Positions 13,401 through 47,815 of a stretch of 64,000 nt of DNA are shown piece by piece. The position numbers were made by a program, and so were the translations under genes. The notes under the pieces are model-generated. The model did no database searches. It saw nothing but the letters and a program-made list of their open reading frames with translations, and was not told where the DNA came from. The first letter of the stretch is position 1; each line of letters opens with the position of its first letter. The stretch comes from Trypanosoma brucei (Eukaryota): contig CH464491.1 in assembly GCA_000002445.1 (NCBI GenBank), forward strand, positions 4,032,001-4,096,000. The letters are read 5' to 3'.

Positions 13401-16400
13401 CTTTCTCAGACGCCTGTACACGTTCACGCTCATTTTGTAATTCAGTACGAAGTGATTCCACCTCATGGGTGTATCGAACACGCTGTTCCTCCATAGCTAT
13501 TTCAAGAGCTAAAAGTTGTTCCCGATGCAATTTCTCCATACCTTCATGGTTCTCTTGTGCAACTTTCTCAGACGCCTGTACACGTTCACGCTCATTTTGT
13601 AATTCAGTACGAAGTGATTCCACCTCATGGGTGTATCGAACACGCTGTTCCTCCATAGCTATTTCAAGAGCTAAAAGTTGTTCCCGATGCAATTTCTCCA
13701 TACCTTCATGGTTCTCTTGTGCAACTTTCTCAGACGCCTGTACACGTTCACGCTCATTTTGTAATTCAGTACGAAGTGATTCCACCTCATGGGTGTATCG
13801 AACACGCTGTTCCTCCATAGCTATTTCAAGAGTTGAAAGTTGTTCCCGATGCAATTTCTCCATACCTTCATGGTTCTCTTGTGCAACTTTCTCAGACGCC
13901 TGTACACGTTCACGCTCATTTTGTAATTCAGTACGAAGTGATTCCACCTCATGGGTGTATCGAACACGCTGTTCCTCCATAGCTATTTCAAGAGCTAAAA
14001 GTTGTTCCCGATGCAATTTCTCCATACCTTCATGGTTCTCTTGTGCAACTTTCTCAGACGCCTGTACACGTTCACGCTCATTTTGTAATTCAGTACGAAG
14101 TGATTCCACCTCATGGGTGTATCGAACACGCTGTTCCTCCATAGCTATTTCAAGAGTTGAAAGTTGTTCCCGATGCAATTTCTCCATACCTTCATGGTTC
14201 TCTTGTGCAACTTTCTCAGACGCCTGTACACGTTCACGCTCATTTTGTAATTCAGTACGAAGTGATTCCACCTCATGGGTGTATCGAACACGCTGTTCCT
14301 CCATAGCTATTTCAAGAGCTAAAAGTTGTTCCCGATGCAATTTCTCCATACCTTCATGGTTCTCTTGTGCAACTTTCTCAGACGCCTGTACACGTTCACG
14401 CTCATTTTGTAATTCAGTACGAAGTGATTCCACCTCATGGGTGTATCGAACACGCTGTTCCTCCATAGCTATTTCAAGAGTTGAAAGTTGTTCCCGATGC
14501 AATTTCTCCATACCTTCATGGTTCTCTTGTGCAACTTTCTCAGACGCCTGTACACGTTCACGCTCATTTTGTAATTCAGTACGAAGTGATTCCACCTCAT
14601 GGGTGTATCGAACACGCTGTTCCTCCATAGCTATTTCAAGAGCTAAAAGTTGTTCCCGATGCAATTTCTCCATACCTTCATGGTTCTCTTGTGCAACTTT
14701 CTCAGACGCCTGTACACGTTCACGCTCATTTTGTAATTCAGTACGAAGTGATTCCACCTCATGGGTGTATCGAACACGCTGTTCCTCCATAGCTATTTCA
14801 AGAGCTAAAAGTTGTTCCCGATGCAATTTCTCCATACCTTCATGGTTCTCTTGTACAACTTTCTCAGACGCCTGTACACGTTCACGCTCATTTTGTAATT
14901 CAGTACGAAGTGATTCCACCTCATGGGTGTATCGAACACGCTGTTCCTCCATAGCTATTTCAAGAGCTAAAAGTTGTTCCCGATGCAATTTCTCCATACC
15001 TTCATGGTTCTCTTGTGCAACTTTCTCAGACGCCTGTACACGTTCACGCTCATTTTGTAATTCAGTACGAAGTGATTCCACCTCATGGGTGTATCGAACA
15101 CGCTGTTCCTCCATAGCTATTTCAAGAGCTAAAAGTTGTTCCCGATGCAATTTCTCCATACCTTCATGGTTCTCTTGTGCAACTTTCTCAGACGCCTGTA
15201 CACGTTCACGCTCATTTTGTAATTCAGTACGAAGTGATTCCACCTCATGGGTGTATCGAACACGCTGTTCCTCCATAGCTATTTCAAGAGCTAAAAGTTG
15301 TTCCCGATGCAATTTCTCCATACCTTCATGGTTCTCTTGTGCAACTTTCTCAGACGCCTGTACACGTTCACGCTCATTTTGTAATTCAGTACGAAGTGAT
15401 TCCACCTCATGGGTGTATCGAACACGCTGTTCCTCCATAGCTATTTCAAGAGCTAAAAGTTGTTCCCGATGCAATTTCTCCATACCTTCATGGTTCTCTT
15501 GTGCAACTTTCTCAGACGCCTGTACACGTTCACGCTCATTTTGTAATTCAGTACGAAGTGATTCCACCTCATGGGTGTATCGAACACGCTGTTCCTCCAT
15601 AGCTATTTCAAGAGCTAAAAGTTGTTCCCGATGCAATTTCTCCATACCTTCATGGTTCTCTTGTGCAACTTTCTCAGACGCCTGTACACGTTCACGCTCA
15701 TTTTGTAATTCAGTACGAAGTGATTCCACCTCATGGGTGTATCGAACACGCTGTTCCTCCATAGCTATTTCAAGAGTTGAAAGTTGTTCCCGATGCAATT
15801 TCTCCATACCTTCATGGTTCTCTTGTGCAACTTTCTCAGACGCCTGTACACGTTCACGCTCATTTTGTAATTCAGTACGAAGTGATTCCACCTCATGGGT
15901 GTATCGAACACGCTGTTCCTCCATAGCTATTTCAAGAGCTAAAAGTTGTTCCCGATGCAATTTCTCCATACCTTCATGGTTCTCTTGTGCAACTTTCTCA
16001 GACGCCTGTACACGTTCACGCTCATTTTGTAATTCAGTACGAAGTGATTCCACCTCATGGGTGTATCGAACACGCTGTTCCTCCATAGCTATTTCAAGAG
16101 CTAAAAGTTGTTCCCGATGCAATTTCTCCATACCTTCATGGTTCTCTTGTGCAACTTTCTCAGACGCCTGTACACGTTCACGCTCATTTTGTAATTCAGT
16201 ACGAAGTGATTCCACCTCATGGGTGTATCGAACACGCTGTTCCTCCATAGCTATTTCAAGAGTTGAAAGTTTTTCTTTATATTTTTTTTGTTCATTTTGT
16301 TTTTTCGTATTTAAGTTTTCAATGTGTTTATGGTGTTGCTGCTCTTTTGCCTTAATGATGTTTGAAAGTTCCTGTTCCCTTTCGCACTGTGCCGCTAATG

Positions 16401-17295
16401 TTAGTTTCATTGCTATTATTTGTTCTTGGTGGCTTGTTTGAATATCTGCGAGAGTTAGAGTGCCTTGTTTGACTTCTGCGGCTTCCGTATTTTGTATCAT
16501 GTCTCTTAGTGTTTGATGCAGTATCTTTATGTTTTCTCGTAAAGCTGCCTGTTCTTCTTTGTCTATATTATTTTCTTTTATTTTTATTTCTCGTAAACGT
16601 CGTTCGTACTCTTCTTTGGTTTTTGTCATTTCTATTTCCTTTTCTTGTAGTGTGAGTTGAGATTGTTGTAGCTGTGTTGTGGATCGTTGAAGTTTCCTTT
16701 CATGTTCGTGTAGTGCTGCCTTTAATGCACTATTTTCCTGTTGTATTCTTTCGTGTTCATTTTGCAGGATTGCCGTTAGTTGTGAATTTTCTTCATAGTT
16801 TTGAAGCTTTTGTCGGACGCTTTCTAGTTCCTTTACCGTGCTATCGCGCTCACACTTCGTTTTGTGGAATTCTTCTCGCAAGTGTTCAAGGTTAACATCT
16901 GTGTCTTTATAAGTAGTAAAACCCTGCTGCATTGTGTGCGGAGAAAGCGTGTGATCCATTGCGTCTGTCTCGCTAGGTGCTGAGCTGCCAGCGGTGCTCT
17001 CTGGAGCAAGTCCCTCTCGGCGCTTGTAATAATAAATTATGGTACGCCACAGCTTAGCGATGCGGTTTGCCGTTGCAGCTGCTTTGGGTGAGCCGTTAGG
17101 TAACGAAAGGTACGCTGTCAGTGATGTCAGCGCCATGTAAATATCGGCCATGGCTTCTGGTAAGTCATGCGCAGCGCTGCTTGTGAGTTTGTACTGTGCA
17201 TCCCTAAGCGAATTTCCAATTCGCGCTTCTATAGTCCTTCGACTGCCTTCGATATCGCTCGTGTTTTCTATTAACTGAGCGTCCTTGAAACTCAT
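10414..17295 (-). CDS. Giant charged repeat protein (2293 aa) with about 28.6 tandem 54-aa repeats; coiled-coil/cytoskeletal-type repetitive antigen candidate.
   Basis: Unique N-terminal domain (about 345 aa). Then repeats of LEIAMEEQRVRYTHEVESLRTELQNERERVQASEKVAQENHEGMEKLHREQLLA. Then a unique 404-aa C-terminal domain. Single uninterrupted minus-strand ORF. Confidence 0.8.
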   Translation of the reverse strand: MSFKDAQLIENTSDIEGSRRTIEARIGNSLRDAQYKLTSSAAHDLPEAMADIYMALTSLTAYLSLPNGSPKAAATANRIAKLWRTIIYYYKRREGLAPESTAGSSAPSETDAMDHTLSPHTMQQGFTTYKDTDVNLEHLREEFHKTKCERDSTVKELESVRQKLQNYEENSQLTAILQNEHERIQQENSALKAALHEHERKLQRSTTQLQQSQLTLQEKEIEMTKTKEEYERRLREIKIKENNIDKEEQAALRENIKILHQTLRDMIQNTEAAEVKQGTLTLADIQTSHQEQIIAMKLTLAAQCEREQELSNIIKAKEQQHHKHIENLNTKKQNEQKKYKEKLSTLEIAMEEQRVRYTHEVESLRTELQNERERVQASEKVAQENHEGMEKLHREQLLALEIAMEEQRVRYTHEVESLRTELQNERERVQASEKVAQENHEGMEKLHREQLLALEIAMEEQRVRYTHEVESLRTELQNERERVQASEKVAQENHEGMEKLHREQLSTLEIAMEEQRVRYTHEVESLRTELQNERERVQASEKVAQENHEGMEKLHREQLLALEIAMEEQRVRYTHEVESLRTELQNERERVQASEKVAQENHEGMEKLHREQLLALEIAMEEQRVRYTHEVESLRTELQNERERVQASEKVAQENHEGMEKLHREQLLALEIAMEEQRVRYTHEVESLRTELQNERERVQASEKVAQENHEGMEKLHREQLLALEIAMEEQRVRYTHEVESLRTELQNERERVQASEKVAQENHEGMEKLHREQLLALEIAMEEQRVRYTHEVESLRTELQNERERVQASEKVVQENHEGMEKLHREQLLALEIAMEEQRVRYTHEVESLRTELQNERERVQASEKVAQENHEGMEKLHREQLLALEIAMEEQRVRYTHEVESLRTELQNERERVQASEKVAQENHEGMEKLHREQLSTLEIAMEEQRVRYTHEVESLRTELQNERERVQASEKVAQENHEGMEKLHREQLLALEIAMEEQRVRYTHEVESLRTELQNERERVQASEKVAQENHEGMEKLHREQLSTLEIAMEEQRVRYTHEVESLRTELQNERERVQASEKVAQENHEGMEKLHREQLLALEIAMEEQRVRYTHEVESLRTELQNERERVQASEKVAQENHEGMEKLHREQLSTLEIAMEEQRVRYTHEVESLRTELQNERERVQASEKVAQENHEGMEKLHREQLLALEIAMEEQRVRYTHEVESLRTELQNERERVQASEKVAQENHEGMEKLHREQLLALEIAMEEQRVRYTHEVESLRTELQNERERVQASEKVAQENHEGMEKLHREQLLALEIAMEEQRVRYTHEVESLRTELQNERERVQASEKVAQENHEGMEKLHREQLSTLEIAMEEQRVRYTHEVESLRTELQNERERVQASEKVAQENHEGMEKLHREQLLALEIAMEEQRVRYTHEVESLRTELQNERERVQASEKVAQENHEGMEKLHREQLSTLEIAMEEQRVRYTHEVESLRTELQNERERVQASEKVAQENHEGMEKLHREQLLALEIAMEEQRVRYTHEVESLRTELQNERERVQASEKVAQENHEGMEKLHREQLLALEIAMEEQRVRYTHEVESLRTELQNERERVQASEKVAQENHEGMEKLHREQLSTLEIAMEEQRVRYTHEVESLRTELQNERERVQASEKVAQENHEGMEKLHREQLSTLEIAMEEQRVRYTHEVESLRTELQNERERVQASEKVAQENHEGMEKLHREQLLALEIAMEEQRVRYTHEVESLRTELQNERERVQASEKVVQENHEGMEKLHREQLLTLEIAMEEQRVRYTHEVESLRTELQNERERVQASEKVVQENHEGMEKLHREQLSTLEIAMEEQRVRYTHEVESLRTELQNERERVQASEMCVTRLVDIGKEQYCCEVDVDVVDMSRRLFVDDMKISFCSDEEQLVNTVFSQFSCSDRGVFSLVGCPAVSSFRRGSVAKQLRVGVRNVLDKLRSFEFDVSDAVVLSQQRMLFIQNVTKKLGIVPGAKLSVDDKFYSPVTSKSKCSAPELPFSFGPLKALCDVVGVGLQRAISFTAVWDEESRRLVEVVEALRHNILVVASLCSWYSQRFDAWGKLTGFTVAKLTVALQKLQYCLLRSLPLNVCDAPIFEACFLLVNDSRKTLCGIGQKLTATADTPLSSSCSVDGGAGIASSVLLSKYRKQQEVRPPVTLDAATLPQLPFLLSSRDGEDVSTPIKSRDNATVNGRSDEKFDGYTNPFGVTPSGCGAKFGPVEEGTTVEAAAEGRQGPFKKKQRRELRLKFIG
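11625..16260. repeat. 162-bp tandem repeat array, about 28.6 near-identical copies (coding, inside the 2293-aa gene).
   Basis: Period measured directly: the motif gtatcgaacacg ends at 11700 and again at 11862, 162 bp apart. Units differ at only 2 to 3 positions (agttgaaag/agctaaaag, ttgtgcaac/ttgtacaac, ccatagctat/ccatggctat). Confidence 0.9.
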
Positions 17296-24136: not shown

Positions 24137-26293
24137 CTACCAGTCATCCCACTCCTCCCCCTCATCATCAACTAGTATATCTGCCTTGGCTTTCACAATG
24201 CGTGATTTACCAACAACAGAGCCCGCATCCTGCCTATCAGAAGGAGCAGCTACACTCTCCAAGCGAGCAACAATACTAGGATTTTCGGAGTGGTCACTCT
24301 CGTCTTCATCAACGAAACTAACTGAGGTAGAAACTATATACTTTTGGTAGACAGTAAGATATTCATCTGCTTGCTTCCGGCAAACGATGCTCCTACAAAC
24401 TCCTTCCTCATGCTCAAGAACCGCAAAAAGCTTAGAAAAATGGGGTGAGTGCCCACAGCATGCTTCCTCCTCAGCTCTGAGACGTGCTTCCTCTTCAGCT
24501 CTGAGACGTGCTTCCTCCTCAGCTCTCAGACGTGCTTCCTCCTCAGCTCTGAGACGTGCTTCCTCTTCAGCTCTCAGACGTGCTTCCTCTTCAGCTCTCA
24601 GACGTGCTTCCTCTTCAGCTCTCAGACGTGCTTCCTCTTCAGCTCTCAGACGTGCTTCCTCTTCAGCTCTCAGACGTGCTTCCTCTTCAGCTCTCAGACG
24701 TGCTTCCTCTTCAGCTCTGAGACGTGCTTCCTCCTCAGCTCTGAGACGTGCTTCCTCTTCAGCTCTCAGACGTGCTTCCTCTTCAGCTCTCAGACGTGCT
24801 TCCTCCTCAGCTCTGAGACGTGCTTCCTCTTCAGCTCTGAGACGTGCTTCCTCTTCAGCTCTGAGACGTGCTTCCTCTTCAGCTCTCAGACGTGCTTCCT
24901 CTTCAGCTCTCAGACGTGCTTCCTCTTCAGCTCTGAGACGTGCTTCCTCTTCAGCTCTCAGACGTGCTTCCTCCTCAGCTCTGAGACGTGCTTCCTCTTC
25001 AGCTCTGAGACGTGCTTCCTCTTCAGCTCTCAGACGTGCTTCCTCTTCAGCTCTGAGACGTGCTTCCTCTTCAGCTCTGAGACGTGCTTCCTCCTCAGCT
25101 CTCAGACGTGCTTCCTCTTCAGCTCTCAGACGTGCTTCCTCTTCAGCTCTCAGACGTGCTTCCTCTTCAGCTCTCAGACGTGCTTCCTCTTCAGCTCTCA
25201 GACGTGCTTCCTCTTCAGCTCTGAGACGTGCTTCCTCCTCAGCTCTGAGACGTGCTTCCTCTTCAGCTCTCAGACGTGCTTCCTCTTCAGCTCTCAGACG
25301 TGCTTCCTCTTCAGCTCTCAGGTGTGTCTCTTCCTCGGAGTTATCTGACGTCTTGCAAATCCTAATAAGATGCTCTTTACCATCGTGTTGTCTCATTTTC
25401 CCTTTCTTAGCAGGTGTGTCACTTTCGTTAATTCGAGGATGGAGTTTGCCGCTGCTGGTGCTTATTTTATTTGTGCATTCATTTTGTACGTATTCTCCTG
25501 TGTGAACTCTGCTTTCCTGTGTGCATTGAGCGTGTAGCAAGCTACTGTTTTTGTTTCCTGTGGGTTGAGCCTCTGATCCTATAATGCGATGCTTCGCGGT
25601 CTTATCGTTATTCTGGTCGTGCTGATGTGCGAACTCGCTAGGGATGTCGTTGCCCACTTGGTTAATAAGGTCGTACTTTTCCTCTCTCAACAGCGTTCCA
25701 ATCTTTTTTACAGTTCCCATATCCGCTGTACATGTTTCCCAAATGCTGTTTATGCGCTGTTGAAGATGAACGATGTTCTCTACATTTATCAACCCAGGTT
25801 GCACTTTGTACTCCTCGAAGATCAATTCACACTTGCGGAGACGCTGATCCACGGCATCTTCCCACCAGGTGTAGACGCTGAGAAAGTCACTTGTATGCGT
25901 TATTTTTTCCTCTAGGCTTAATTGAAGGAGGAACTGCGCCTCTCCGTGGATACGTTTGGAAGTGAGAGTTATAAGACTGACAGACTCCGTAATGTATCGA
26001 AACAATTCTTCTGGTTCCAGAGATGTACGCTTTTCTTCCGCAAGACATAAAAGTGGTGGCGGTTTTTCATATTCGCCAGCCAGTTCGGCACTGCCAGCGC
26101 CAGAGTCGAGTACAACAGGGGATGATGTGAGTTTGTTCATCCAACCGACGACGTGCTCCTCGAGGAGGGAAAACCCCGAGCTCATTGCTGCACTTCGTTG
26201 CTGTTTCTGTTCAGGTGCAGCGGCGAGCTCGTCTCGCGTTGGGGCAACCGTGCGCCGAGCCGCGTTCTTTATGTCTATTAAAAAGTTCCACAT
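24137..26293 (-). CDS. Repeat protein with about 36 tandem EEEARLRA octads (candidate ER/K single alpha-helix spacer) flanked by unique N- and C-terminal domains.
   Basis: 718-aa ORF. The central part is (EEEARLRA)n encoded by a 24-bp repeat. About 330 aa of unique N-terminal sequence and about 100 aa of unique C-terminal sequence. Confidence 0.7.
24455..25325. repeat. 24-bp tandem repeat (gcttcctcttcagctctcagacgt and variants), about 36 copies, coding.
   Basis: Visible periodicity. Units vary only at two positions (ctc/ctt and cag/gag on the plus strand). On the minus strand these are synonymous Leu (ctg/ctc) and Glu (gaa/gag) codon changes. The translated repeat is invariant. Confidence 0.9.
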
Positions 26294-39178: not shown

Positions 39179-40798
39179 CTAAGCGATCGTTGACTTCCCT
39201 AGCAACAAATCAACCTCTCGCTCCAACTCGGATGCCTGAGCTGCGCACACTTCCATCGCACTCAACTGACAGTCGATGAGGCCGACAAACTTGGCCAGAT
39301 CATCCGACTGGCGAAGGTGCCGTACAGAACCATTGTGTTGCCTGACACATTGCTGCAGTCGAAGTTTTAAAGTTTCTACTTCATCAAAAAGGTTAATTAC
39401 AGCCGTGTAAGTTTCCTCACGTGCCTCGTCCACACTGTTGAATGTTGGTCGTACCTGCGCGAAGATAGGCTGAACGGCATCTTCAAAGCGCTGCAACATT
39501 GTTCCGATTGCAGCCTGTTTGTTCTTGAGCTCTATGAGTGTTTGTCGTGTGACGTCGGCATTGGCAATAGCCTCTTCAAGGTGGGACGAGTGTGAAAGAA
39601 TCTCATTCCCACGCTCGATTATCTGCCGGTCACGGAGCATCATGAGCTGTGACAATTCCGAAAAGTCACGGTAATCTTTAGAGAAAGCTTTATCAAACTG
39701 CGCCAGTATGGTTGAAAGCATCTTCCCCCTGAGCTCTAACGAAGCTTGCTTACCTGAAATTGCAGTGGGGTCGCCCGCTCCTACTGTTCCAGTAGCTCCA
39801 GCGCTTTGATTTCCTCCAGTGACACCAGCGCCTAGGGAGGGACCCAACCCTGCTCCTCCCGCGCCGGCCGTTGCTGGCGGGGCGTTGCCACCCGTTTCAG
39901 ATGGTTTTGTGATGGAGCTAAAGGGACCGCCTCCAGTGGTGGCCGCACCAGCAGTAGCATTAGTTGAGGCAGGGTTAGTTGGTGCGGTAGCGCCGGCCCC
40001 AAACCCAGCGAAAGGCGTAGGCGCTGCACTCGGGTTGCTTCCAGAAGCTGGTGGTGTAGCACCGAAACCGCCAAATGCAGCTGGTGCACCGGCTTTGACT
40101 GTGTCACCTGAGGGGGGGTTTGTAACCATGGTCGTTGCCGCTGGAACCGCAGTAGCGGTGCCCGCTGTTGGATTTGTTCCGGTGTTTCCAGGATTGGATG
40201 CACTCCCGTCAAAGGTGGTGTTTGCCGGGGTCGCCCCACTTGCCGGTGTTTGTCCAACCGCACTGGTTGCGGCGCCAAACCCACCTGTGCTAGGTGCAGT
40301 TGCGGTAGTCCCTGTAGTTGAAGTTTGGCCGAATCCGGCACCAAAAGGATTAAGGGTTGTCTTTGCACCACTGCCGAAGCCACTGAACCCTGAGGTGGGA
40401 GCAGCGGACGTGCTAGGCGCCGCTGCAGCGCCGACCCCTGTTGGCACAACAGAGTTGCCACCTTCGCCCTTACCCGGAGTCGCTCCAAAACCGAGGACGG
40501 TTTGCCCAAGTACAGGTGCCGGCTGTGTGGCACTGCTTGTTGATTGCGCTCCGACGGCAAATCCTCCTGTGGAGGGACCACTCCCGAAACCGCCCATCCC
40601 TGCTGCCGGAGCTGAGCCTCCGGACTGGTTCGCGGTTTGGCCGAAAGGGTTTGTTACTCCTGCTACGGACTCGGTGTTACTCTGTCCAAAGGATCCGAAA
40701 CCTAGCACGGGGGCAGCAGCAGTAGCGTTTGTGTCAACTGCCGGCTGTCCAAATCCCCCACCAGATGGCGCTCTTCCTCGCACAGCAAAGCCCTTCAT
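39179..40798 (-). CDS. FG-repeat nucleoporin with a C-terminal coiled-coil (Nup62/Nsp1-type), possibly Nup53a-like.
   Basis: About 400 aa of Gly/Ala/Thr/Pro-rich sequence with many GFG/FGQ/FGA/FGS motifs, then a structured helical C-terminal domain. Very GC-rich, so the antisense strand is also open. Confidence 0.75.
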   Translation of the reverse strand: MKGFAVRGRAPSGGGFGQPAVDTNATAAAPVLGFGSFGQSNTESVAGVTNPFGQTANQSGGSAPAAGMGGFGSGPSTGGFAVGAQSTSSATQPAPVLGQTVLGFGATPGKGEGGNSVVPTGVGAAAAPSTSAAPTSGFSGFGSGAKTTLNPFGAGFGQTSTTGTTATAPSTGGFGAATSAVGQTPASGATPANTTFDGSASNPGNTGTNPTAGTATAVPAATTMVTNPPSGDTVKAGAPAAFGGFGATPPASGSNPSAAPTPFAGFGAGATAPTNPASTNATAGAATTGGGPFSSITKPSETGGNAPPATAGAGGAGLGPSLGAGVTGGNQSAGATGTVGAGDPTAISGKQASLELRGKMLSTILAQFDKAFSKDYRDFSELSQLMMLRDRQIIERGNEILSHSSHLEEAIANADVTRQTLIELKNKQAAIGTMLQRFEDAVQPIFAQVRPTFNSVDEAREETYTAVINLFDEVETLKLRLQQCVRQHNGSVRHLRQSDDLAKFVGLIDCQLSAMEVCAAQASELEREVDLLLGKSTIA

Positions 40799-41134
40799 TC
40801 CGTTCTTTTCTTATTAATTGCCTTTCCCTCTTCAACTTTACTTCCTGGCACCCCTCTTTATAGTGTGGTATTCGTTCTGTAAATGCGGGCCCTAACGAAC
40901 CTAATCTAACCTTTAGGAGAATCGGACCAAATATCTCGTTAGAGAAAACCGTGTCAATGAGAGACGTGGGACAACAACGAAAATCGGAAAAAATATTTCG
41001 GGTTTAATGGTACGTGAATGTTCTTTTCCTATGGTCCAAAATGTACAATTTTTACTCTTGCTTCCACAGAATGTTAGAAAATAGCCAGGAACCCTTGTGC
41101 GAGAATGTCAGTGGCGGCCGTTCCACGAAACCAC

Positions 41135-43036
41135 TCACCTTCGCACCCCATAGTGGATCATGTAAGCAAATATAGCTTGTGCCCGCTCGGCCATCCCGTG
41201 TGAAAAGCACTTCTTCACCGCAGATTGAAAGGCAACCTCTGATATTGGGACGTGCAAATCACACATACGTGAAAAAAGTCGCACAGACACCTCCCAAGAT
41301 GCGCCAGGTGGTGGGGCCCGTTCCAACGCATACTGAACTGCGTCGTGCACTTTAGCCGATGGCAAGTAAAAATATCTGCGAACCGGATCATCCAAAAGTT
41401 TATCCAAGAACCAAAGGGCCTGTCTCCACTCTCCCTCTCTGGAAGATTGTAACAGTAAGTGTTCGTATGACTCGTTCTCCACCTTAATCCCCTTGGCTTT
41501 CATTACACGAGTCCACGAAAGTGACTCTCCGGCGGTGTTGGTGCTTCTTAGCATGACATTGAAGGCTCTTCCTGTGGCGTCCGCACCGAAGTGTTTGGAC
41601 AACTGCTTCTGACAAAGAAGCCTTGATGCCAAAGACCCCTTCTGACACTTATTCAACATACGAAACAGATCGAGGAAGATGTCAACAGCAATATGGTCTT
41701 GTGGAACGACAAGGTCCTCAGGCTTACTGTACACTAGGTACTGCTGCAATGTGCGCAAAGCCTCTACCCAACGATTACCACGGATGCATGCCTGCAACAA
41801 CTTTTGCGTTGCGTCGCGGTCGTCAGCAAGCAGCAGGTCACCTTGTTGAACCATTAGTGACGCGTAGTAAAGAGCCAGATACCACTGTTGTCGCAGTATC
41901 CGACACATATGGTAAACAGAAACCATATTCGGGGAAACAACCTTGTTGCGAGAGACGGAACCAAATCCATCTCCCTTATCTTTGCTTCCACCCTCAGGGT
42001 TTCTTCCACCCACCATGAAGCATTCAACTACCCGGCATGCCATCTGCCAGTTTTCTCTACACATGGTAAGAACCGCTAGAGCATCGTTAATTGGAGACGA
42101 TGTGGTTATATGCACGTCCGCTGTGTGCGCGAGGCCCAGCACACGGATTGCAAGACTCCACCACGACGGAGCTGAGGAGCCCAAGATTGAGTCCTCTGCC
42201 CTCCTTTTCTGCTTTCGCTCTTCTGTTGTACCCTGAGTAAGGCGCCCTTGTGAAGCACGGTAGATGCTGCGAAGGGCAGCTGCTACCTCTACCTCTGTCC
42301 ACGCAACAGGGGAAATTTCACCAAAGCACCGCAGCACCATCTCCCAGCGACCCGCGCTACTGAACAGCTCCATCGCAGCCCCCAACACTTTAGGGCTTAC
42401 CGTAACGTCAGACAACATCCGAATCGCCTCTTCCCACCGACCCTCTCGCGACAATTTCCTCGCGCAACTCACCGCAACACTGTCGCTAAGCATAAACTCA
42501 ACCTTCTCCGGCAGCCGTACGAAATCATCCACATTATTCTGATGGATATGCCGTACAATTGGCGCCATTTCCGGGTGGTAAATCAAGCGCGTTACCTCAG
42601 CACCCGCTTCGTCACTTTCTACAGAGAATAAAAGGGCTGTTTTAGCAAGTCGCCGCAAGGGCAGACAAGTGCAGTCGGTTGTGGTAATGGCAGACTTCTC
42701 TGCAACCACTTCGGTCGACACCTCCGATACCACGTTGTCCTCCTTTTCGCATCCTTGTGGAAAGAGTTTTTTTGGTTGATAACTCATGGGGAGTTTCTGG
42801 ATGTGGTCCTGCTTCTGTTGATGCATTTGATGCAGCTGGGCGTAGATATACCTGACAAGTGAAGGCATGTCATCACCACGTGCCAAACGAGACAGAAAGA
42901 AAGCGAACAACTTCGAGGCACATGACCGAGACTTCTCTCCACACACCGAGTGAGAGTCCGCAGAGGAGGAGGAGAGCGAAGGGAAGATGGAACTCGAGCA
43001 AGCACCATGGGACCCTTTACCGCCTTCGCTGCTCAT
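41135..43036 (-). CDS. Helical-repeat protein (PPR/TPR-like), 633 aa; candidate organellar RNA-binding protein.
   Basis: Repeated roughly 35-aa amphipathic helix-pair segments with Ala/Leu/Trp/Tyr periodicity (e.g. VYHMCRILRQQWYLALYYASLMVQQGD, AFNVMLRSTNTAGESLSWTRVMKAKGIKVENESYEHLL). No precise family call is possible by eye. Confidence 0.45.
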   Translation of the reverse strand: MSSEGGKGSHGACSSSIFPSLSSSSADSHSVCGEKSRSCASKLFAFFLSRLARGDDMPSLVRYIYAQLHQMHQQKQDHIQKLPMSYQPKKLFPQGCEKEDNVVSEVSTEVVAEKSAITTTDCTCLPLRRLAKTALLFSVESDEAGAEVTRLIYHPEMAPIVRHIHQNNVDDFVRLPEKVEFMLSDSVAVSCARKLSREGRWEEAIRMLSDVTVSPKVLGAAMELFSSAGRWEMVLRCFGEISPVAWTEVEVAAALRSIYRASQGRLTQGTTEERKQKRRAEDSILGSSAPSWWSLAIRVLGLAHTADVHITTSSPINDALAVLTMCRENWQMACRVVECFMVGGRNPEGGSKDKGDGFGSVSRNKVVSPNMVSVYHMCRILRQQWYLALYYASLMVQQGDLLLADDRDATQKLLQACIRGNRWVEALRTLQQYLVYSKPEDLVVPQDHIAVDIFLDLFRMLNKCQKGSLASRLLCQKQLSKHFGADATGRAFNVMLRSTNTAGESLSWTRVMKAKGIKVENESYEHLLLQSSREGEWRQALWFLDKLLDDPVRRYFYLPSAKVHDAVQYALERAPPPGASWEVSVRLFSRMCDLHVPISEVAFQSAVKKCFSHGMAERAQAIFAYMIHYGVRR

Positions 43037-44952: not shown

Positions 44953-45816
44953 CTAAGGCCTCTGCCCAGCTGACTGTGCGGAGTCACAGATCTCCTGAAG
45001 TTTCGCAAGAAGCTCACTCCACACAGGGCCCTTCGTTGGTGAACATAACAAAAAATTGCACCCTGCACGCGCAGCTGCAACTCTATCCTCATCTTCATCG
45101 CCAATATGAATCCAGTGGAGCATCGATGTTACACCACACTTCTTGCAGGAGGCTATAATTCCCTGGGGTGATGGCTTGGCAGCACCAACGGCGTCAGCGA
45201 AGAATAGCTCTCCAAGTAAGTCGGTTTCCCCTTGGTCCTTCAGCATTTCACCAATTACTGCGACCAGCCGTGAGTCAGTATTTGAAACAAGTGTTGGAGG
45301 GTCACAGCAAACTCCAGGGGGAACATCGTTTTCCCGCCATTGTTTGAGGGCTCGGAGTGTTGGAAGGGCTTCAGGAAGCCAGCAGTAGGGTTCCGGTGTG
45401 GAAAACCGACGCAATGTATTTTCGATAAACTCGCGCCAGTCCTCCCCCTGCCGTACCTCCTCAACTGCAGACATCATTGCCTCGTCTTGATGACAAAAAT
45501 TTCCCTCCCGGTCAAATGTTCCATCCACAACACGGTACCAAAAACTTAATACTTCTTCAGGTGCTACGCCACCCAAGGGCATTTCTTCTCCATCGCCCAA
45601 ACCGTTTTCCATCCAGACTTTGCGAGACTTCGATATTTCTGACTTCATGCTGCGTTTGAAGCTTGCCTCAAGGTCTCTTTCATCCATAGCTGGAAATTGC
45701 AATCCCTTGCGCGCAAGAAATCGAAGAAGGTCACAGCCATACTGGTAGCCGGCCGACCGCCGAACGGCCAATAAAGTGCCAACAAGATCGAACGAAACGC
45801 CCACACGGTCACCCAT
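44953..45816 (-). CDS. HAD-superfamily hydrolase (haloacid-dehalogenase/HDHD3-like subfamily).
   Basis: Motif I FDLVGTLL (the DxYGTL-type of L-2-haloacid dehalogenases) and motif IV HIGDEDEDRVAAARAGC near the C-terminus. 287 aa. Confidence 0.6.
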   Translation of the reverse strand: MGDRVGVSFDLVGTLLAVRRSAGYQYGCDLLRFLARKGLQFPAMDERDLEASFKRSMKSEISKSRKVWMENGLGDGEEMPLGGVAPEEVLSFWYRVVDGTFDREGNFCHQDEAMMSAVEEVRQGEDWREFIENTLRRFSTPEPYCWLPEALPTLRALKQWRENDVPPGVCCDPPTLVSNTDSRLVAVIGEMLKDQGETDLLGELFFADAVGAAKPSPQGIIASCKKCGVTSMLHWIHIGDEDEDRVAAARAGCNFLLCSPTKGPVWSELLAKLQEICDSAQSAGQRP

Positions 45817-46114
45817 ATTTCCGCGGTGTAATAAACGGTGCGTTTGCGTAAATTTTTGCTGTTGTTCTAAAATGCCCCCTGTTTAAAAGAAAATCCATGT
45901 AAACGAGCAGTGGTATCGAAACACTGAGAGTTAACAGTATTTCACGGTAGTACGTTGCCAACCACAAAAAGATGTTCCACGCCCACCAAAAAATTACTCT
46001 CACAAAGCACCAGAGAGTTACACCACCACTTCCATCACCTGCCACTTTCTGGCACACAGTAGTAAAGTGCAAACGACTCACCTGATATATCATTAAAACA
46101 AAGAAAACATTTAG

Positions 46115-47815
46115 TCACTGTCCCTCACTTAGACTCCCACAGATGCGCTCTTTTAGACAAGGAAACCCTTCTCTAACGTGATCAGTAAGGACGGTCTCAT
46201 CAGTGTCCTCTTCCTCGTCATTGCCTTCTTGGGAACTAGTGTCTTCATCCCCTTCACCGTTAGTTTCCTCATCCTCATCGATTACAACTTCCTCGTCAGT
46301 ACCCTCTTGGGAGCTGGTATTCTCATCTCCTTCACTCTCAGTCTCCTCTTCCTCATCAGTGTCCTCTTCCTCACTTTCTGATTCTTCCTCTTCATCATCC
46401 TCAATGACAGTCTTACGGGCCGCCCTGTCCCTCATCTGACTGTTCCGTTCCCCCTTCGCTGCAATTTGGCGCATTCGGGAAAAAAGGACAGAATCAGGTG
46501 GAAAGTGGTGGACTTCGTCAACCACAGCGAGCGGGAGGCTATGCATCAAAAAGGAAGGTCCGTACATGGTAAAATATTCACAGTCCTCGGGAACTTCAAC
46601 ACCCTTGTCTGTCGACAGGTCGGGAGACCACGAGAAGTAGCTGGTTTCACCGTTACGTAGAGCGGTTGCACAGCTAAATACGTCGCGTGTCAGTACCCCG
46701 GCCAGACGGGCCGCGACCACATCCACGTTGCAACTACCACCTAGCATGAGCACTTTCGCAGAATGACTTGCAGACTCGGTAAGAAGCGTACGAAGAATCC
46801 GTTGGTATCCTCCTATGGTTAAATTCAAAAGGCCATAGGGATCTCCAGATAAGGAATTCGACCCACAAACAACGACTACTGCTCCCAACTCGACCCCGGC
46901 CCTCCTGAACGCAGAATAGATGCCACGCTGGGCCATCGGCACAACAAGAGCGTCAGTTGCCCCCACAGGCAGTGGAATGTTCATGGTGTAGCCGCGTCCC
47001 AAACCACTCCCTATTTCTTCCAACGAACCGGTTCCAGGGAAGATTCCTATACCGTACGCATGAAGAGATAGGGTAACTACTCGAGGATCCGACAGAAAAG
47101 CCTCCTGCGCCCCATCACCATGATGAGCGTCAAGATCAACCGCAAGAACCACATTTCTATTCGCTGGTAGAAGTTTGCGTAACTCTAATACGGCGAGAAC
47201 AACGTCATTGACCAAGCACGAACCCCCAGCTGAAGCGCGCTTTGCATTATGTTTCCCACCCATCCAATGAATAGCGGCGAATCGGGATGGCTGTGCGAGC
47301 AAGCGAGTGGCCGCAAGTGTACCTGACACAACGGCCTGAGTGAATCGCCACATACCAGAGAAAGGCGCGCTGTCACCCACGAGGTTAAACCTTTTGTCCC
47401 CATTTTGTGGGAAAAGCACGAACGGTGGCAGGGGGGCTGAGCAACGTCTAGAAGCGAATCTTTTTGATGGCGTGCCCCTTATATTGCTGCATCCTGAAAA
47501 TGAGAGAACGTGCTCATCATCCCCCGAAGCCACCTCGCGTAAACTCAAATAGCGCACGTATGACTCGTCGTGGAACACAGTCATATCTTCCACATCAACA
47601 CTTGGTAGATTGCGATCGACCCATTCAAAAATGTCATTACAAAAGGCAGCTTCACCGCCTACTTCCTTCCGGGGGAAAGGGGTGCAGCCGTAATGACGCA
47701 CCATATCAATGATGAGTTTGTTGTGCTGAAGCGCGGGAAGACTAGCGGGTGCATCGACATCGGTACTAACGATGACTGCTACCGGCGGGATGGAAGCAGG
47801 AGGCTCCACAACCAT
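46115..47815 (-). CDS. Histone-deacetylase-family protein (class I-like fold) with non-canonical active-site residues and a duplicated acidic C-terminal tail; probable DAC2-type paralogue.
   Basis: HDAC signatures GGKHNAKRASAGGSCLVNDVV, DLDAHHGDG, CGSNSLSGDPYGLLNLT and GGSCNVDVVAAR. Tail (GDENTSSQEGTDEE / GDEDTSSQEGNDEE) is a tandem duplication. 566 aa. Confidence 0.8.
   Translation of the reverse strand: MVVEPPASIPPVAVIVSTDVDAPASLPALQHNKLIIDMVRHYGCTPFPRKEVGGEAAFCNDIFEWVDRNLPSVDVEDMTVFHDESYVRYLSLREVASGDDEHVLSFSGCSNIRGTPSKRFASRRCSAPLPPFVLFPQNGDKRFNLVGDSAPFSGMWRFTQAVVSGTLAATRLLAQPSRFAAIHWMGGKHNAKRASAGGSCLVNDVVLAVLELRKLLPANRNVVLAVDLDAHHGDGAQEAFLSDPRVVTLSLHAYGIGIFPGTGSLEEIGSGLGRGYTMNIPLPVGATDALVVPMAQRGIYSAFRRAGVELGAVVVVCGSNSLSGDPYGLLNLTIGGYQRILRTLLTESASHSAKVLMLGGSCNVDVVAARLAGVLTRDVFSCATALRNGETSYFSWSPDLSTDKGVEVPEDCEYFTMYGPSFLMHSLPLAVVDEVHHFPPDSVLFSRMRQIAAKGERNSQMRDRAARKTVIEDDEEEESESEEEDTDEEEETESEGDENTSSQEGTDEEVVIDEDEETNGEGDEDTSSQEGNDEEEDTDETVLTDHVREGFPCLKERICGSLSEGQ

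What the first reader, a model, noticed from the sequence alone, without database searches (positions are those of the whole stretch)
46115..47815. HDAC-family gene with Asn at three canonical catalytic or zinc-ligand positions: predicted pseudo-deacetylase with a duplicated acidic tail
I aligned by eye to the conserved class I HDAC motifs as I recall them from HDAC1/HDAC8. At GGLHHAKK, this protein has GGKHNAKR: the second of the tandem His (general base/electrostatic catalyst) is Asn190 (codon aat on the minus strand, 47246..47248). At CGSDSLSGD (the zinc-ligand Asp), it has CGSNSLSGD: Asn320 (46856..46858). At GGGGY (the transition-state-stabilising Tyr), it has GGSCN: Asn363 (46727..46729). 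The DxHHGDG Asp/His zinc ligands (DLDAHHGDG) are retained. Three independent substitutions at catalytic positions in an otherwise well-conserved fold argue for a non-catalytic HDAC paralogue, acting as a scaffold or acetyl-lysine reader, rather than sequencing error. The C-terminus carries a tandem-duplicated acidic module (GDENTSSQEGTDEE / GDEDTSSQEGNDEE) reminiscent of histone-chaperone acidic tails.
Basis: partly seen in the sequence, partly recalled or inferred. Interest (0 to 1): 0.6.

Follow-up and report, generated by a model that had tools for sequence, protein, structure and literature searches.

The report
Trypanosoma brucei DAC2, a dead deacetylase
This gene is the known Trypanosoma brucei histone deacetylase 2 (DAC2), which keeps the deacetylase fold but has lost its key catalytic residues; the loss was already published, and the gene is reported to be non-essential and its protein cytoplasmic.

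Summary
ORF 46115..47815 (-) encodes a 566-aa PF00850 protein. Asn190, Asn320 and Asn363 occupy the columns of HDAC1 His141, the zinc ligand Asp264 and the catalytic Tyr303. Pairwise, multiple and profile alignments agree on His141 and Asp264. Tyr303 rests on the pairwise and orthologue alignments, and no Tyr lies near enough for a shift to rescue it.

The protein is identical to T. brucei TREU927 "histone deacetylase 2" (DAC2, Tb11.01.7240). A 2023 review, drawing on Ingram & Horn 2002, states that TbDAC2 alone among the four TbDACs lacks the critical residues. DAC2 is also reported as non-essential and cytoplasmic. The core finding is therefore already known.

Additions from this work:
- Four more active-site changes are specific to T. 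brucei: Phe150→Ser199, Leu271→Tyr327 and Gly-Gly→Ser361-Cys362.
- All other DAC2 orthologues keep His, Asp and Tyr, except T. rangeli, including the active, crystallised T. cruzi enzyme.
- The T. brucei lineage is significantly accelerated, yet the ORF is intact with pN/pS below 1 across isolates.
- The acidic tail, though not its 26-aa duplication, is present in every Trypanosoma DAC2 retrieved, so it is unrelated to catalytic death.
- Two T. rangeli strains each carry a different substitution at a catalytic position.

Verdict: a real, well-supported pseudo-deacetylase, already described, of low to moderate interest.

The parts
46115..47815 (-). Complete CDS of T. brucei DAC2 (histone deacetylase 2, Tb11.01.7240; XP_829617.1 / Q381M6), 566 aa
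   Evidence: ORF listing. Exact-sequence match to the TREU927 protein. Gene ID from PMC2941730.
46721..47608 (-). Hist_deacetyl (PF00850) domain, residues 70-365
   Evidence: Pfam E=1.3e-51. AF2 core pLDDT mostly 80-97. Foldseek TM (target-normalised) 0.88-0.90 to T. cruzi DAC2 and about 0.73-0.79 to HDAC1/2/3/8.
47246..47248 (-). Asn190 (AAT) in the column of HDAC1 His141, the second His of the tandem dyad
   Evidence: The column is 82/82 His in class I HDACs.
47219..47221 (-).
   Evidence: GGFC→GGSC. The column is 82/82 Phe. The change is unique to T. brucei among DAC2 orthologues.
47111..47137 (-). Retained DLDAHHGDG motif (227-235): Asp227 (HDAC1 Asp174), zinc ligands Asp229 and His231 (HDAC1 Asp176 and His178), Asp234
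   Evidence: A Lister-type allele carries L228P inside this motif.
46856..46858 (-). Asn320 (AAT) in the column of the third zinc ligand, HDAC1 Asp264
   Evidence: The column is 82/82 Asp.
46835..46837 (-). Tyr327 in the column of HDAC1 Leu271 at the pocket rim
   Evidence: GDPLG→GDPYG. The column is 80/82 Leu.
46727..46735 (-). Ser361-Cys362-Asn363 replacing Gly-Gly-Tyr of the GGGGY loop; Asn363 sits in the column of HDAC1 Tyr303 and T. cruzi Tyr371
   Evidence: No Tyr between residues 337 and 393.
47426..47524 (-). Predicted disordered insertion in the DAC2 clade (residues 98-130), absent from canonical class I HDACs
   Evidence: pLDDT below 50. Gap in class I sequences, and the equivalent loop is missing from the crystallised T. 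cruzi chain.
46406..46720 (-). C-terminal part of the catalytic-domain fold with a DAC2-specific insertion (residues 366-470), conserved across DAC2 orthologues
   Evidence: Alignments A1 and A2. Aligned to 7q1b up to residue 480.
46193..46405 (-). Acidic Ser/Thr-rich tail (residues 471-541): 42 of 71 residues Asp/Glu, no Lys/Arg, predicted disordered
   Evidence: Acidic tails are also present in the T. theileri, T. grayi, T. conorhini, T. rangeli and T. cruzi orthologues.
46196..46372 (-). 78-bp (26-aa) tandem duplication within the tail, 2.3 copies
   Evidence: TRF score 214, 73% matches. 18 of 26 residues identical between units.

Best explanation
This is T. brucei DAC2, the African-trypanosome orthologue of a kinetoplastid-restricted class I HDAC clade. 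Its T. cruzi member is a crystallised zinc deacetylase that binds inhibitors and is treated as essential.

In the T. brucei lineage the fold and the structural residues were kept. These include Asp227, Asp229, His231, His232, Asp234, Ser250, Phe259 and the rim Asp148. The chemistry was dismantled:
- The second dyad His, which by established HDAC8/HDAC1 enzymology is the general base/acid, is Asn190.
- The third zinc ligand Asp is the neutral Asn320.
- The Tyr that polarises the substrate carbonyl and stabilises the oxyanion is Asn363, and its flexible Gly-Gly hinge is Ser-Cys.
- One tunnel Phe is Ser199.
- The rim Leu is Tyr327.

The protein is therefore most likely unable to deacetylate lysine. 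That step is inferred from sequence and was not assayed.

The ORF is intact and identical at these sites in several isolates, shows pN/pS below 1, and its mRNA is regulated. I therefore think it persists as a dispensable, cytoplasmic, non-catalytic protein that acts by binding partners through the HDAC-fold surface and its acidic, Ser/Thr-rich, CK2-type tail. That step is an inference of only moderate confidence.

The confidence of 0.85 refers to the identity of the gene and to loss of canonical activity. About 0.5 applies to a retained non-catalytic function as opposed to slow decay.
For: - Identity: exact match to XP_829617.1 'histone deacetylase 2', T. brucei TREU927. DAC2 = Tb11.01.7240 with a predicted mass of 61 kDa (PMC2941730).
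- Family and fold: PF00850 at E=1.3e-51. T. cruzi DAC2 7q1b at E=1e-150 over residues 9-480. AF2 plus Foldseek TM 0.88-0.90.
- Catalytic columns.
- Orthologue comparison: T. theileri, T. grayi, T. conorhini, T. cruzi and Angomonas all have His-His, Asp and Tyr. Synteny (a ~1000-aa gene, DAC2, a HAD hydrolase, a 414-472-aa gene) is conserved in T. b. gambiense, T. conorhini, T. rangeli and T. cruzi.
- Lineage-specific acceleration: 25 unique changes at otherwise invariant positions, against 1-6 in other trypanosomes. Tajima relative-rate test 54-64 against 23-34, p=3e-5 to 0.02.
- Maintenance: the ORF is intact in 5 cluster members. pN/pS is 0.04 (1 non-synonymous, 8 synonymous) and 0.31 (7 and 7).
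[quoted passage not shown] Nulls are viable. The protein is cytoplasmic. The mRNA rises transiently 6 h into stumpy-to-procyclic differentiation (PMC2753553). Only DAC1 and DAC3 were shown to be active in vitro. T. cruzi Tyr371 is named the catalytic tyrosine.
Against: - No enzymatic assay of TbDAC2 was found in the searchable literature, so inactivity is a prediction.
- Two of the three zinc ligands remain, and an Asn carbonyl oxygen can coordinate zinc, so a metal may still bind.
- The first dyad His (His189) is retained.
- The pN/pS estimates rest on 9 and 14 differences.
- Salivarian trypanosomes may evolve faster in general, so part of the relative-rate excess may not be specific to this gene. 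No control gene with the same outgroup was available.
- Null mutants have no reported phenotype. That fits a gene with no remaining function as well as one with a subtle function.
Confidence: 0.85

Rival explanations
1. Evolutionary relic. After catalytic function became dispensable in the salivarian lineage, DAC2 lost its function altogether and is drifting towards loss. The intact ORF would reflect only the short time since divergence of the sampled T. brucei isolates.
For: - The gene is non-essential, with no phenotype in nulls.
- At least seven active-site changes and a significantly accelerated lineage.
- DAC2 is reported absent from Leishmania.
- No T. congolense DAC2 was retrieved, although the neighbouring gene's T. 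congolense orthologue is in the same database.
- The Lister-type allele carries 7 non-synonymous against 7 synonymous differences, including L228P inside the metal-binding motif.
- T. rangeli strains also show erosion of catalytic positions and a raised dN/dS of 0.37, against 0.16 for T. conorhini versus T. cruzi.
Against: - There is no stop or frameshift in any of five T. brucei-group sequences, and the length is constant at 566 aa.
- pN/pS of 0.04-0.31 is below 1.
- Structural-core and potassium-site residues remain conserved.
- The mRNA is developmentally regulated.
- Substitutions are concentrated in the active site rather than spread randomly.
- Absence from the protein database is weak evidence, because the T. 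rangeli AM80 copy exists on its contig but was not returned either.
Confidence: 0.3
2. Acetyl-lysine (or acyl-lysine) reader. Like vertebrate class IIa HDACs, the dead pocket still binds acetyl-lysine and recruits partners.
For: - The fold and pocket scaffold are retained: Gly198, Cys200, Phe259, Asp148, Asp229 and His231.
- Precedent from class IIa HDACs, where Tyr→His reduces catalysis but binding persists (my own knowledge, not tested here).
Against: - The pocket is remodelled far beyond the class IIa case.
- Tunnel Phe150→Ser, rim Leu271→Tyr (which may occlude the entrance), loss of one zinc ligand and of the Gly-Gly hinge.
- The loop at 256-272 carrying Phe259 is modelled with low confidence.
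- The protein is cytoplasmic, not chromatin-associated.
Confidence: 0.1
3. Altered but real enzyme. The Asn-rich site supports a different chemistry or substrate, for example another acyl group, a polyamine, or a different metal.
For: - His189, Asp229, His231 and the charge-relay Asp227 and Asp234 remain.
- The ORF is maintained.
- The arginase/deacetylase fold is known to accommodate diverse substrates (my own knowledge).
Against: - The general base/acid His, a zinc ligand and the oxyanion Tyr are lost together.
- By established knowledge, single mutations at these positions (HDAC1 H141A, HDAC8 H143A and Y306F) abolish or nearly abolish activity. T. cruzi Y371F is used as the catalytic-site mutant.
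- No coherent replacement set of catalytic residues is visible.
Confidence: 0.06
4. Artefact: sequencing or assembly error, or a mis-called reading frame.
For: Nothing found supports this.
Against: - The three Asn codons are identical in independent assemblies and read sets: TREU927, DAL972 and three Logan run assemblies of the HDO2 allele. The T. equiperdum protein also carries the three Asn.
- There is a single uninterrupted 566-aa ORF that matches orthologues end to end.
Confidence: 0.01

Closest known systems
Trypanosoma cruzi DAC2 (PDB 7q1b, 7q1c; Marek et al. 2021, Cell Rep 37:110129, cited; paper not held in the library)
   Same: - Orthologue: E=1e-150, 52-57% identity over about 450 residues.
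- Same syntenic position.
- Same clade-specific N-terminal extension, internal loop, C-terminal insertion and acidic tail.
- Model TM 0.88-0.90.
   Different: - T. cruzi DAC2 keeps His-His, Asp-His-Asp and Tyr371, and also Phe and Leu.
- It was crystallised with hydroxamate inhibitors in the active site and is handled as an essential gene.
- TbDAC2 has Asn, Asn, Asn, Ser and Tyr at those positions and is non-essential.
Human class I HDAC1, HDAC2 and HDAC8, and yeast Rpd3
   Same: PF00850 fold. About 30% identity across the catalytic core. The DxHHGDG zinc and potassium motif, Gly149/Cys151, Phe205 and Asp99 equivalents are retained.
   Different: - The equivalents of His141, Asp264, Tyr303, Phe150 and Leu271 are replaced.
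- There are extra insertions at 98-130 and about 385-405.
- The protein is cytoplasmic rather than nuclear and in a co-repressor complex.
Vertebrate class IIa HDACs (HDAC4, 5, 7, 9) as low-activity acetyl-lysine readers (my own knowledge: Lahm et al. 2007 PNAS; Bradner et al. 2010)
   Same: HDAC-fold proteins in which loss of the catalytic Tyr lowers catalysis, so that non-enzymatic roles dominate.
   Different: - Class IIa proteins change only Tyr→His and keep the zinc site, both His and both tunnel Phe.
- TbDAC2 has lost at least five catalytic or pocket residues.
- It belongs to class I, not class IIa.
HDAC10 C-terminal pseudo-deacetylase domain (my own knowledge: Hai et al. 2017 Nat Commun)
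   Same: A degenerate deacetylase fold that lacks the catalytic and metal-binding residues and serves a structural role.
   Different: The HDAC10 pseudo-domain is fused to, and packs against, an active domain in the same polypeptide. TbDAC2 is a free-standing single-domain protein, and no active partner has been identified.
T. brucei 'prozymes': dead paralogues that activate AdoMetDC, deoxyhypusine synthase and PRMT1 (my own knowledge: Willert 2007; Nguyen 2013; Kafkova 2017)
   Same: Catalytically dead paralogues of enzymes that are retained in the T. brucei genome.
   Different: - Prozymes are essential obligate partners of an active paralogue and are conserved across trypanosomatids.
- TbDAC2 is non-essential.
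- Its orthologues in other trypanosomes are catalytically intact.
- No heteromer with DAC1, DAC3 or DAC4 is known.

Membership tests
Zn-dependent histone deacetylase superfamily (Pfam PF00850), class I | Significant match to the Hist_deacetyl profile above the curated threshold | tested here: met
   E=1.3e-51, 176.2 bits against a cut-off of 27.9, residues 70-365. The best non-DAC2 hits are HDAC1, HDAC2, Rpd3 and HDAC8.
Zn-dependent histone deacetylase superfamily (Pfam PF00850), class I | Arginase/deacetylase alpha/beta fold | tested here: met
   AF2 model with core pLDDT 80-97. Foldseek TM (target-normalised) 0.88-0.90 to 7q1b/7q1c and 0.73-0.79 to HDAC1/2/3/8.
Zn-dependent histone deacetylase superfamily (Pfam PF00850), class I | Tandem His-His catalytic dyad (HDAC1 His140/His141) | tested here: not met
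   His189-Asn190. The column is 82/82 His in class I HDACs.
Zn-dependent histone deacetylase superfamily (Pfam PF00850), class I | Asp-His-Asp zinc triad (HDAC1 Asp176, His178, Asp264) | tested here: not met
   Asp229 and His231 are present. The third ligand is Asn320, in a column that is 82/82 Asp.
Zn-dependent histone deacetylase superfamily (Pfam PF00850), class I | Catalytic Tyr in the GGGGY loop (HDAC1 Tyr303) | tested here: not met
   GGSCN with Asn363. No Tyr between residues 337 and 393.
Zn-dependent histone deacetylase superfamily (Pfam PF00850), class I | Lysine deacetylase activity | not testable with these tools
   No assay of TbDAC2 was found. Only DAC1 and DAC3 were assayed in PMC2941730.
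Kinetoplastid DAC2 clade (orthologues of T. cruzi DAC2) | Full-length similarity much higher to DAC2 proteins than to any other HDAC | tested here: met
   552-575 bits to full-length Trypanosoma DAC2 proteins (506 for the crystallised T. cruzi chain) and 348 to Angomonas, against 160 or less to any other HDAC. The profile search returns only this clade at E<1e-60.
Kinetoplastid DAC2 clade (orthologues of T. cruzi DAC2) | Conserved gene order (large ~1000-aa gene, DAC2, HAD-like hydrolase, 414-472-aa gene) | tested here: met
   Window ORFs compared with T. b. gambiense, T. conorhini, T. rangeli AM80 and T. cruzi loci.
Kinetoplastid DAC2 clade (orthologues of T. cruzi DAC2) | Clade-specific N-terminal extension, internal loop, C-terminal insertion and, within Trypanosoma, an acidic tail | tested here: met
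   Alignments A1 and A2. Tail composition.
Pseudoenzyme (maintained catalytically dead paralogue or orthologue) | Loss of residues indispensable for catalysis in an otherwise conserved fold | tested here: met
Pseudoenzyme (maintained catalytically dead paralogue or orthologue) | Purifying selection after loss of catalysis | tested here: inconclusive
   pN/pS of 0.04 and 0.31, but from only 9 and 14 differences. dS against other species is saturated. The lineage is accelerated.
Pseudoenzyme (maintained catalytically dead paralogue or orthologue) | Demonstrated non-catalytic function | not testable with these tools
   Nulls have no reported phenotype. No interactome data were found.
Acetyl-lysine reader of the class IIa HDAC type | Intact acetyl-lysine tunnel (two Phe walls, rim Leu, zinc site) with only the catalytic Tyr changed | tested here: not met
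   Phe150→Ser199, Leu271→Tyr327 and Asp264→Asn320 in addition to the Tyr change.

The most novel reading that the evidence does not exclude
DAC2 may be an enzyme caught in the act of becoming dispensable in several trypanosome lineages independently. It is fully dismantled but maintained in T. brucei. It carries different single hits at catalytic positions in two T. rangeli strains (first dyad His→Asn in AM80; zinc-ligand Asp→Gly in SC58). It is reported absent from Leishmania and is possibly absent from T. congolense.

On this reading the retained T. brucei protein has acquired a non-catalytic role. One possibility is that it acts as a prozyme-like partner or decoy for the other DACs found in the cytoplasm: DAC4, and DAC1, which relocalises there in insect-stage cells. 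Another is that it acts as an acidic-tail carrier of basic proteins when cells re-enter the cell cycle during stumpy-to-procyclic differentiation, which is when its mRNA peaks together with histone mRNAs.
Probability: 0.2. Interest if true: 0.55.

Novelty: already known. Interest (0 to 1): 0.22.

Why it matters
HDACs are being pursued as anti-trypanosomal drug targets, and T. cruzi DAC2 is a validated, structurally characterised one. TbDAC2 is a dead enzyme and is non-essential, so DAC2-directed inhibitors should not be expected to work against African trypanosomes through this protein. Annotation as 'histone deacetylase 2' should therefore not be read as implying activity.

As an evolutionary case it is a clean natural example of the conversion of an enzyme into a pseudoenzyme within one genus, with an active, crystallised orthologue available for direct comparison. 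The basic fact has been in the literature since 2002, so the value added here is limited. It consists of the fuller list of pocket changes, the evidence for lineage-specific acceleration with retained ORF integrity, and the hint of parallel erosion in T. rangeli.

Tried and rejected
1. The two primary papers (Ingram & Horn 2002; Marek et al. 2021) are not held in the library. The 'already known' verdict therefore rests on a 2023 review's one-sentence summary, on reviews and primary papers for phenotype and localisation, and on my own recollection that both primary papers comment on the TbDAC2 substitutions.

2. Searches for 'DAC2 + brucei + catalytic residues' and for 'histone deacetylase 2 + Tb927.11' found nothing.

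3. I tried to determine whether T. congolense or T. vivax have DAC2.
   - No hit came from the single-sequence or the profile search.
   - The T. congolense orthologue of the neighbouring gene is in the database, but its DNA is not on record, so the syntenic locus could not be inspected.
   - T. rangeli AM80 DAC2 exists on its contig yet was not returned by either search. Absence from this database is therefore weak evidence, and I do not claim loss in T. congolense.

4. My first attempt at column counts used mafft --add --keeplength. That option drops query insertions and so gave wrong positions, and I discarded the result. The rerun without it is used.
   - In that rerun mafft pushed the SCN residues into an 11-residue gap and aligned AGV to GGY. 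This is an artefact of the missing GGY.
   - The Tyr assignment rests on the ungapped orthologue alignment and on phmmer.

5. dN/dS between T. brucei and the stercorarian species is not estimable, because pS is about 0.8 and saturated.

6. I considered and rejected the idea that the acidic tail is specific to the pseudoenzyme, because it is shared with the active T. cruzi enzyme.

7. I considered a sequencing error and rejected it.
Full report

Yes, in every detail. The window carries one uninterrupted 566-aa ORF on the minus strand at 46115..47815. The quoted motifs are all present at the stated positions:
- GGKHNAKR at 186-193, with Asn190 = AAT at 47246..47248.
- CGSNSLSGD at 317-325, with Asn320 = AAT at 46856..46858.
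- GGSCN at 359-363, with Asn363 = AAC at 46727..46729.
- The retained DLDAHHGDG at 227-235.
- The two tail modules at 496-509 and 522-535.

The protein matches Pfam Hist_deacetyl (PF00850) at E=1.3e-51, far above the curated cut-off.

**2. Are the three column assignments right?**

- A phmmer alignment to human HDAC1 (5icn_B, whose chain index equals native numbering) is ungapped from query 141 / HDAC1 92. It therefore puts Asn190 on His141.
- The same alignment puts Asn320 on the Asp of CGSDSLSGD (Asp264). The alignment to human HDAC2 (7kbh_A) puts Asn363 under the Tyr of GGGGY, the residue that is Tyr303 in HDAC1.
An HMM built only from 82 non-DAC2 class I HDACs retrieved aligns TbDAC2 'MGGKHNAKRASAGGSCLVND' under the consensus 'aGGlHHAkkseAsGFCYvND', and 'CGSNSLSGDPYG' under 'cGaDsLsgDrlg'.
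- In those 82 sequences the His141 and Asp264 columns are invariant, at 82/82.
- The local profile alignment stops at ...LGG, exactly where T. brucei diverges. The Tyr column is fixed by the ungapped alignment with the DAC2 orthologues (LGAGGYVD..ARLAGV..T.DV against LGGSCNVD..ARLAGV..TRDV).
- The partner residue there is T. cruzi Tyr371, which the T. cruzi group call the catalytic tyrosine (PMC9048117).
- There is no Tyr between residues 337 and 393, and no His other than 183 and 189 near the dyad. No shift of register can rescue canonical residues.

**3. What is it?**

The sequence is identical to XP_829617.1 / Q381M6, 'histone deacetylase 2' of Trypanosoma brucei brucei TREU927, on a 5.26-Mb contig. 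It is 99% identical to the 'HDO2' protein Q8T6T5, and nearly identical to the T. b. gambiense and T. equiperdum proteins. This is DAC2 = Tb11.01.7240, predicted at 61 kDa (PMC2941730).

The best solved structure is T. cruzi DAC2 (7q1b, E=1e-150 over residues 9-480). An AlphaFold2 model has a confident core (pLDDT mostly 80-97). Two segments are disordered: the clade-specific loop at 98-130 and the tail at 472-566. The model superposes on 7q1b/7q1c with a target-normalised TM of 0.88-0.90, and on HDAC1/2/3/8 with 0.73-0.79. The 'otherwise well-conserved fold' claim therefore holds.

The neighbouring genes all lie on the same strand and are functionally unrelated, as expected for a trypanosome polycistron: an RsmB-F methyltransferase, a ~1000-aa gene, a HAD hydrolase, a PPR protein and an Nsp1-like protein. 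The local order, large gene then DAC2 then HAD hydrolase then a 414-472-aa gene, is conserved in T. b. gambiense, T. conorhini, T. rangeli and T. cruzi. This establishes orthology.

**4. What the orthologues show**

Only seven other DAC2-clade proteins exist in the 5.8-billion-protein collection: T. theileri, T. grayi, T. conorhini, T. rangeli, two from T. cruzi, and Angomonas. All have His-His, Asp and Tyr at the three positions, except T. rangeli (see section 9). The losses therefore happened on the branch leading to T. brucei.

T. brucei alone also has:
- Phe→Ser199 in GGFC (HDAC1 Phe150, 82/82 Phe).
- Leu→Tyr327 in GDPLG (HDAC1 Leu271, 80/82 Leu).
- Gly-Gly→Ser361-Cys362 in front of the lost Tyr.
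- Phe→Met185 and Thr→Ala236.

The following are retained:
- Asp148 (HDAC1 Asp99).
- Gly198 and Cys200.
- Asp227, Asp229, His231, His232 and Asp234.
- Phe259.

Ser250 is invariant in the alignment.

The overall pattern is selective dismantling of the chemistry and of part of the substrate tunnel, while the fold-stabilising and potassium-site residues are preserved.

**5. Rate and constraint**

- T. brucei carries 25 unique substitutions at positions that are invariant in the other six DAC2 proteins. The other trypanosomes carry 1-6 each.
- With Angomonas as outgroup, Tajima's relative-rate test gives 54-64 changes unique to T. brucei against 23-34 for each stercorarian species (p=3e-5 to 0.02). 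Most stercorarian comparisons do not differ from each other; T. rangeli against T. conorhini does (section 9).
- A general salivarian rate increase could contribute. I had no control gene with the same outgroup.
- Within T. brucei the ORF is intact, 566 aa long in all five cluster members, and the three Asn codons are unchanged.
- TREU927 against gambiense shows 1 non-synonymous and 8 synonymous differences (pN/pS 0.04).
- TREU927 against the HDO2-type allele shows 7 and 7 (0.31). That allele was recovered identically from three independent read-set assemblies, and it includes L228P inside the DLDAHH motif.

This argues against an artefact and, weakly, for continued purifying selection.

**6. 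The acidic tail**

Residues 471-541 contain 42 Asp/Glu out of 71, no Lys or Arg, and 15 Ser/Thr. The segment is predicted to be disordered. A 78-bp (26-aa) tandem duplication is detectable at DNA level (46196..46372, 2.3 copies, 73% matches), with 18 of 26 residues identical between units. The duplication is therefore real.

Acidic tails are present in every Trypanosoma DAC2 retrieved, including the active T. cruzi enzyme (Asp/Glu fraction 0.36-0.86). T. rangeli SC58 has its own, different tandem repeat in its tail, and Angomonas has no tail at all. The tail is thus an ancestral feature of the genus and says nothing about pseudoenzyme status. Its Ser/Thr-x-x-Asp/Glu pattern resembles the CK2-phosphorylated C-terminal tails of HDAC1 and HDAC2. 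That comparison comes from my own knowledge and was not tested.

**7. What is already known**

[quoted passage not shown] The statement appears in its account of the TbDAC genes, next to the work of Ingram et al. (PMC10143871).
- DAC2 null mutants are viable and were used as such (PMC2253726; PMC8569148; PMC2753553).
- Tagged DAC2 is predominantly cytoplasmic, and only DAC1 and DAC3 were shown to be active in vitro (PMC2941730).
- Leishmania is reported to lack a DAC2 orthologue (PMC7468196).
- DAC2 mRNA rises transiently, together with histone mRNAs, 6 h into synchronous stumpy-to-procyclic differentiation (PMC2753553).
- The two primary papers (Ingram & Horn 2002; Marek et al. 2021) are not in the library.

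The core of the finding is therefore already published. Annotation as 'histone deacetylase 2' hides that fact but does not make the finding new.

**8. Mechanism**

Shown:
- Membership of the fold, and orthology to an active enzyme.
- Replacement of the second dyad His, one zinc ligand, the catalytic Tyr, its Gly-Gly hinge, one tunnel Phe and the rim Leu.
- The losses are specific to the lineage.
- The ORF is maintained.

Inferred from established HDAC enzymology, where HDAC1 H141A and HDAC8 H143A and Y306F are effectively dead (my own knowledge) and T. cruzi Y371F is used as the catalytic-site mutant: TbDAC2 cannot activate the zinc-bound water or stabilise the tetrahedral intermediate, and probably binds zinc poorly. 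It is therefore a pseudo-deacetylase.

What it does instead is unknown. My best guess is a dispensable cytoplasmic binding protein that uses the HDAC-fold surface and the acidic tail, possibly relevant when cells re-enter the cell cycle during differentiation. I put this at about 0.5, against about 0.3 for a functionless relic drifting towards loss. A class IIa-like acetyl-lysine reader role is disfavoured because the tunnel itself is remodelled.

**9. Seen in passing**

The two available T. rangeli genomes each carry a different single-nucleotide change at a catalytic position:
- AM80 has GGRNHAK, with the first dyad His→Asn (CAT→AAT).
- SC58 has CGSGAL, with the zinc-ligand Asp→Gly (GAC→GGC).

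Each strain is canonical at the other's site. Their dN/dS is 0.37, against 0.16 for T. conorhini versus T. cruzi. T. rangeli SC58 is also accelerated relative to T. conorhini, 23 against 10 unique changes, p=0.024. If these changes are not assembly errors, DAC2 catalysis may be eroding independently in T. rangeli.

**10. Verdict**

The pseudo-deacetylase interpretation is supported. The functional embellishments, reader and histone-chaperone-like tail, are not supported. The finding is already known, and interest is low to moderate.

Noticed in passing
L006:8096-9625 (T. rangeli AM80) and L007:114-1742 (T. rangeli SC58): The two T. rangeli DAC2 orthologues each have a different substitution at a catalytic position. 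AM80 has GGRNHAK, with the first dyad His→Asn (CAT→AAT). SC58 has CGSGAL, with the zinc-ligand Asp→Gly (GAC→GGC). The strains are only 91% identical at protein level, with dN/dS 0.37. This may be parallel erosion of DAC2 catalysis, or it may reflect assembly errors.
   Followed up: partly
window 47132..47134 (codon 228); L002-L004: A second T. brucei allele (HDO2 / Lister type, recovered from three independent read-set assemblies) differs at 7 amino acids. One of them is L228P, between Asp227 and the zinc ligand Asp229 in the DLDAHHGDG motif.
   Followed up: partly
database searches: No T. congolense or T. vivax DAC2 was retrieved, although the T. congolense orthologue of the adjacent HAD-hydrolase gene is in the same database. 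The T. rangeli AM80 copy was also missed by the searches, so absence from the database is weak evidence.
   Followed up: partly
window 45809..46093 (-): A 94-aa ORF lies in the DAC2-HAD intergenic region and overlaps the HAD gene start by 8 nt. It is called as a gene on a Logan contig (L002 2420-2704) but has no Pfam match. It is probably a spurious ORF in UTR sequence.
   Followed up: no
window 10414..17295 (-), repeats 11624..16275: A 2293-aa ORF contains about 28.7 near-perfect (99%) tandem copies of a 162-bp (54-aa) unit. This explains the strong GC and AT skew at 12-18 kb. It is a large repetitive-protein gene whose identity was not determined.
   Followed up: no
window 24137..26293 (-), repeats 24461..25321: A 718-aa ORF contains about 36 copies of a 24-bp (8-aa) tandem repeat at 96% matches. 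This coincides with the composition skew at 24-26 kb.
   Followed up: no
window 39179..43036 compared with L005, L006 and L008 downstream regions: Downstream of the conserved block (DAC2, HAD hydrolase, 414-472-aa gene), the T. cruzi, T. conorhini and T. rangeli loci carry two MIP/aquaporin genes. The T. brucei window instead has a PPR-repeat gene and an Nsp1-like nucleoporin gene. This may be a synteny break.
   Followed up: no
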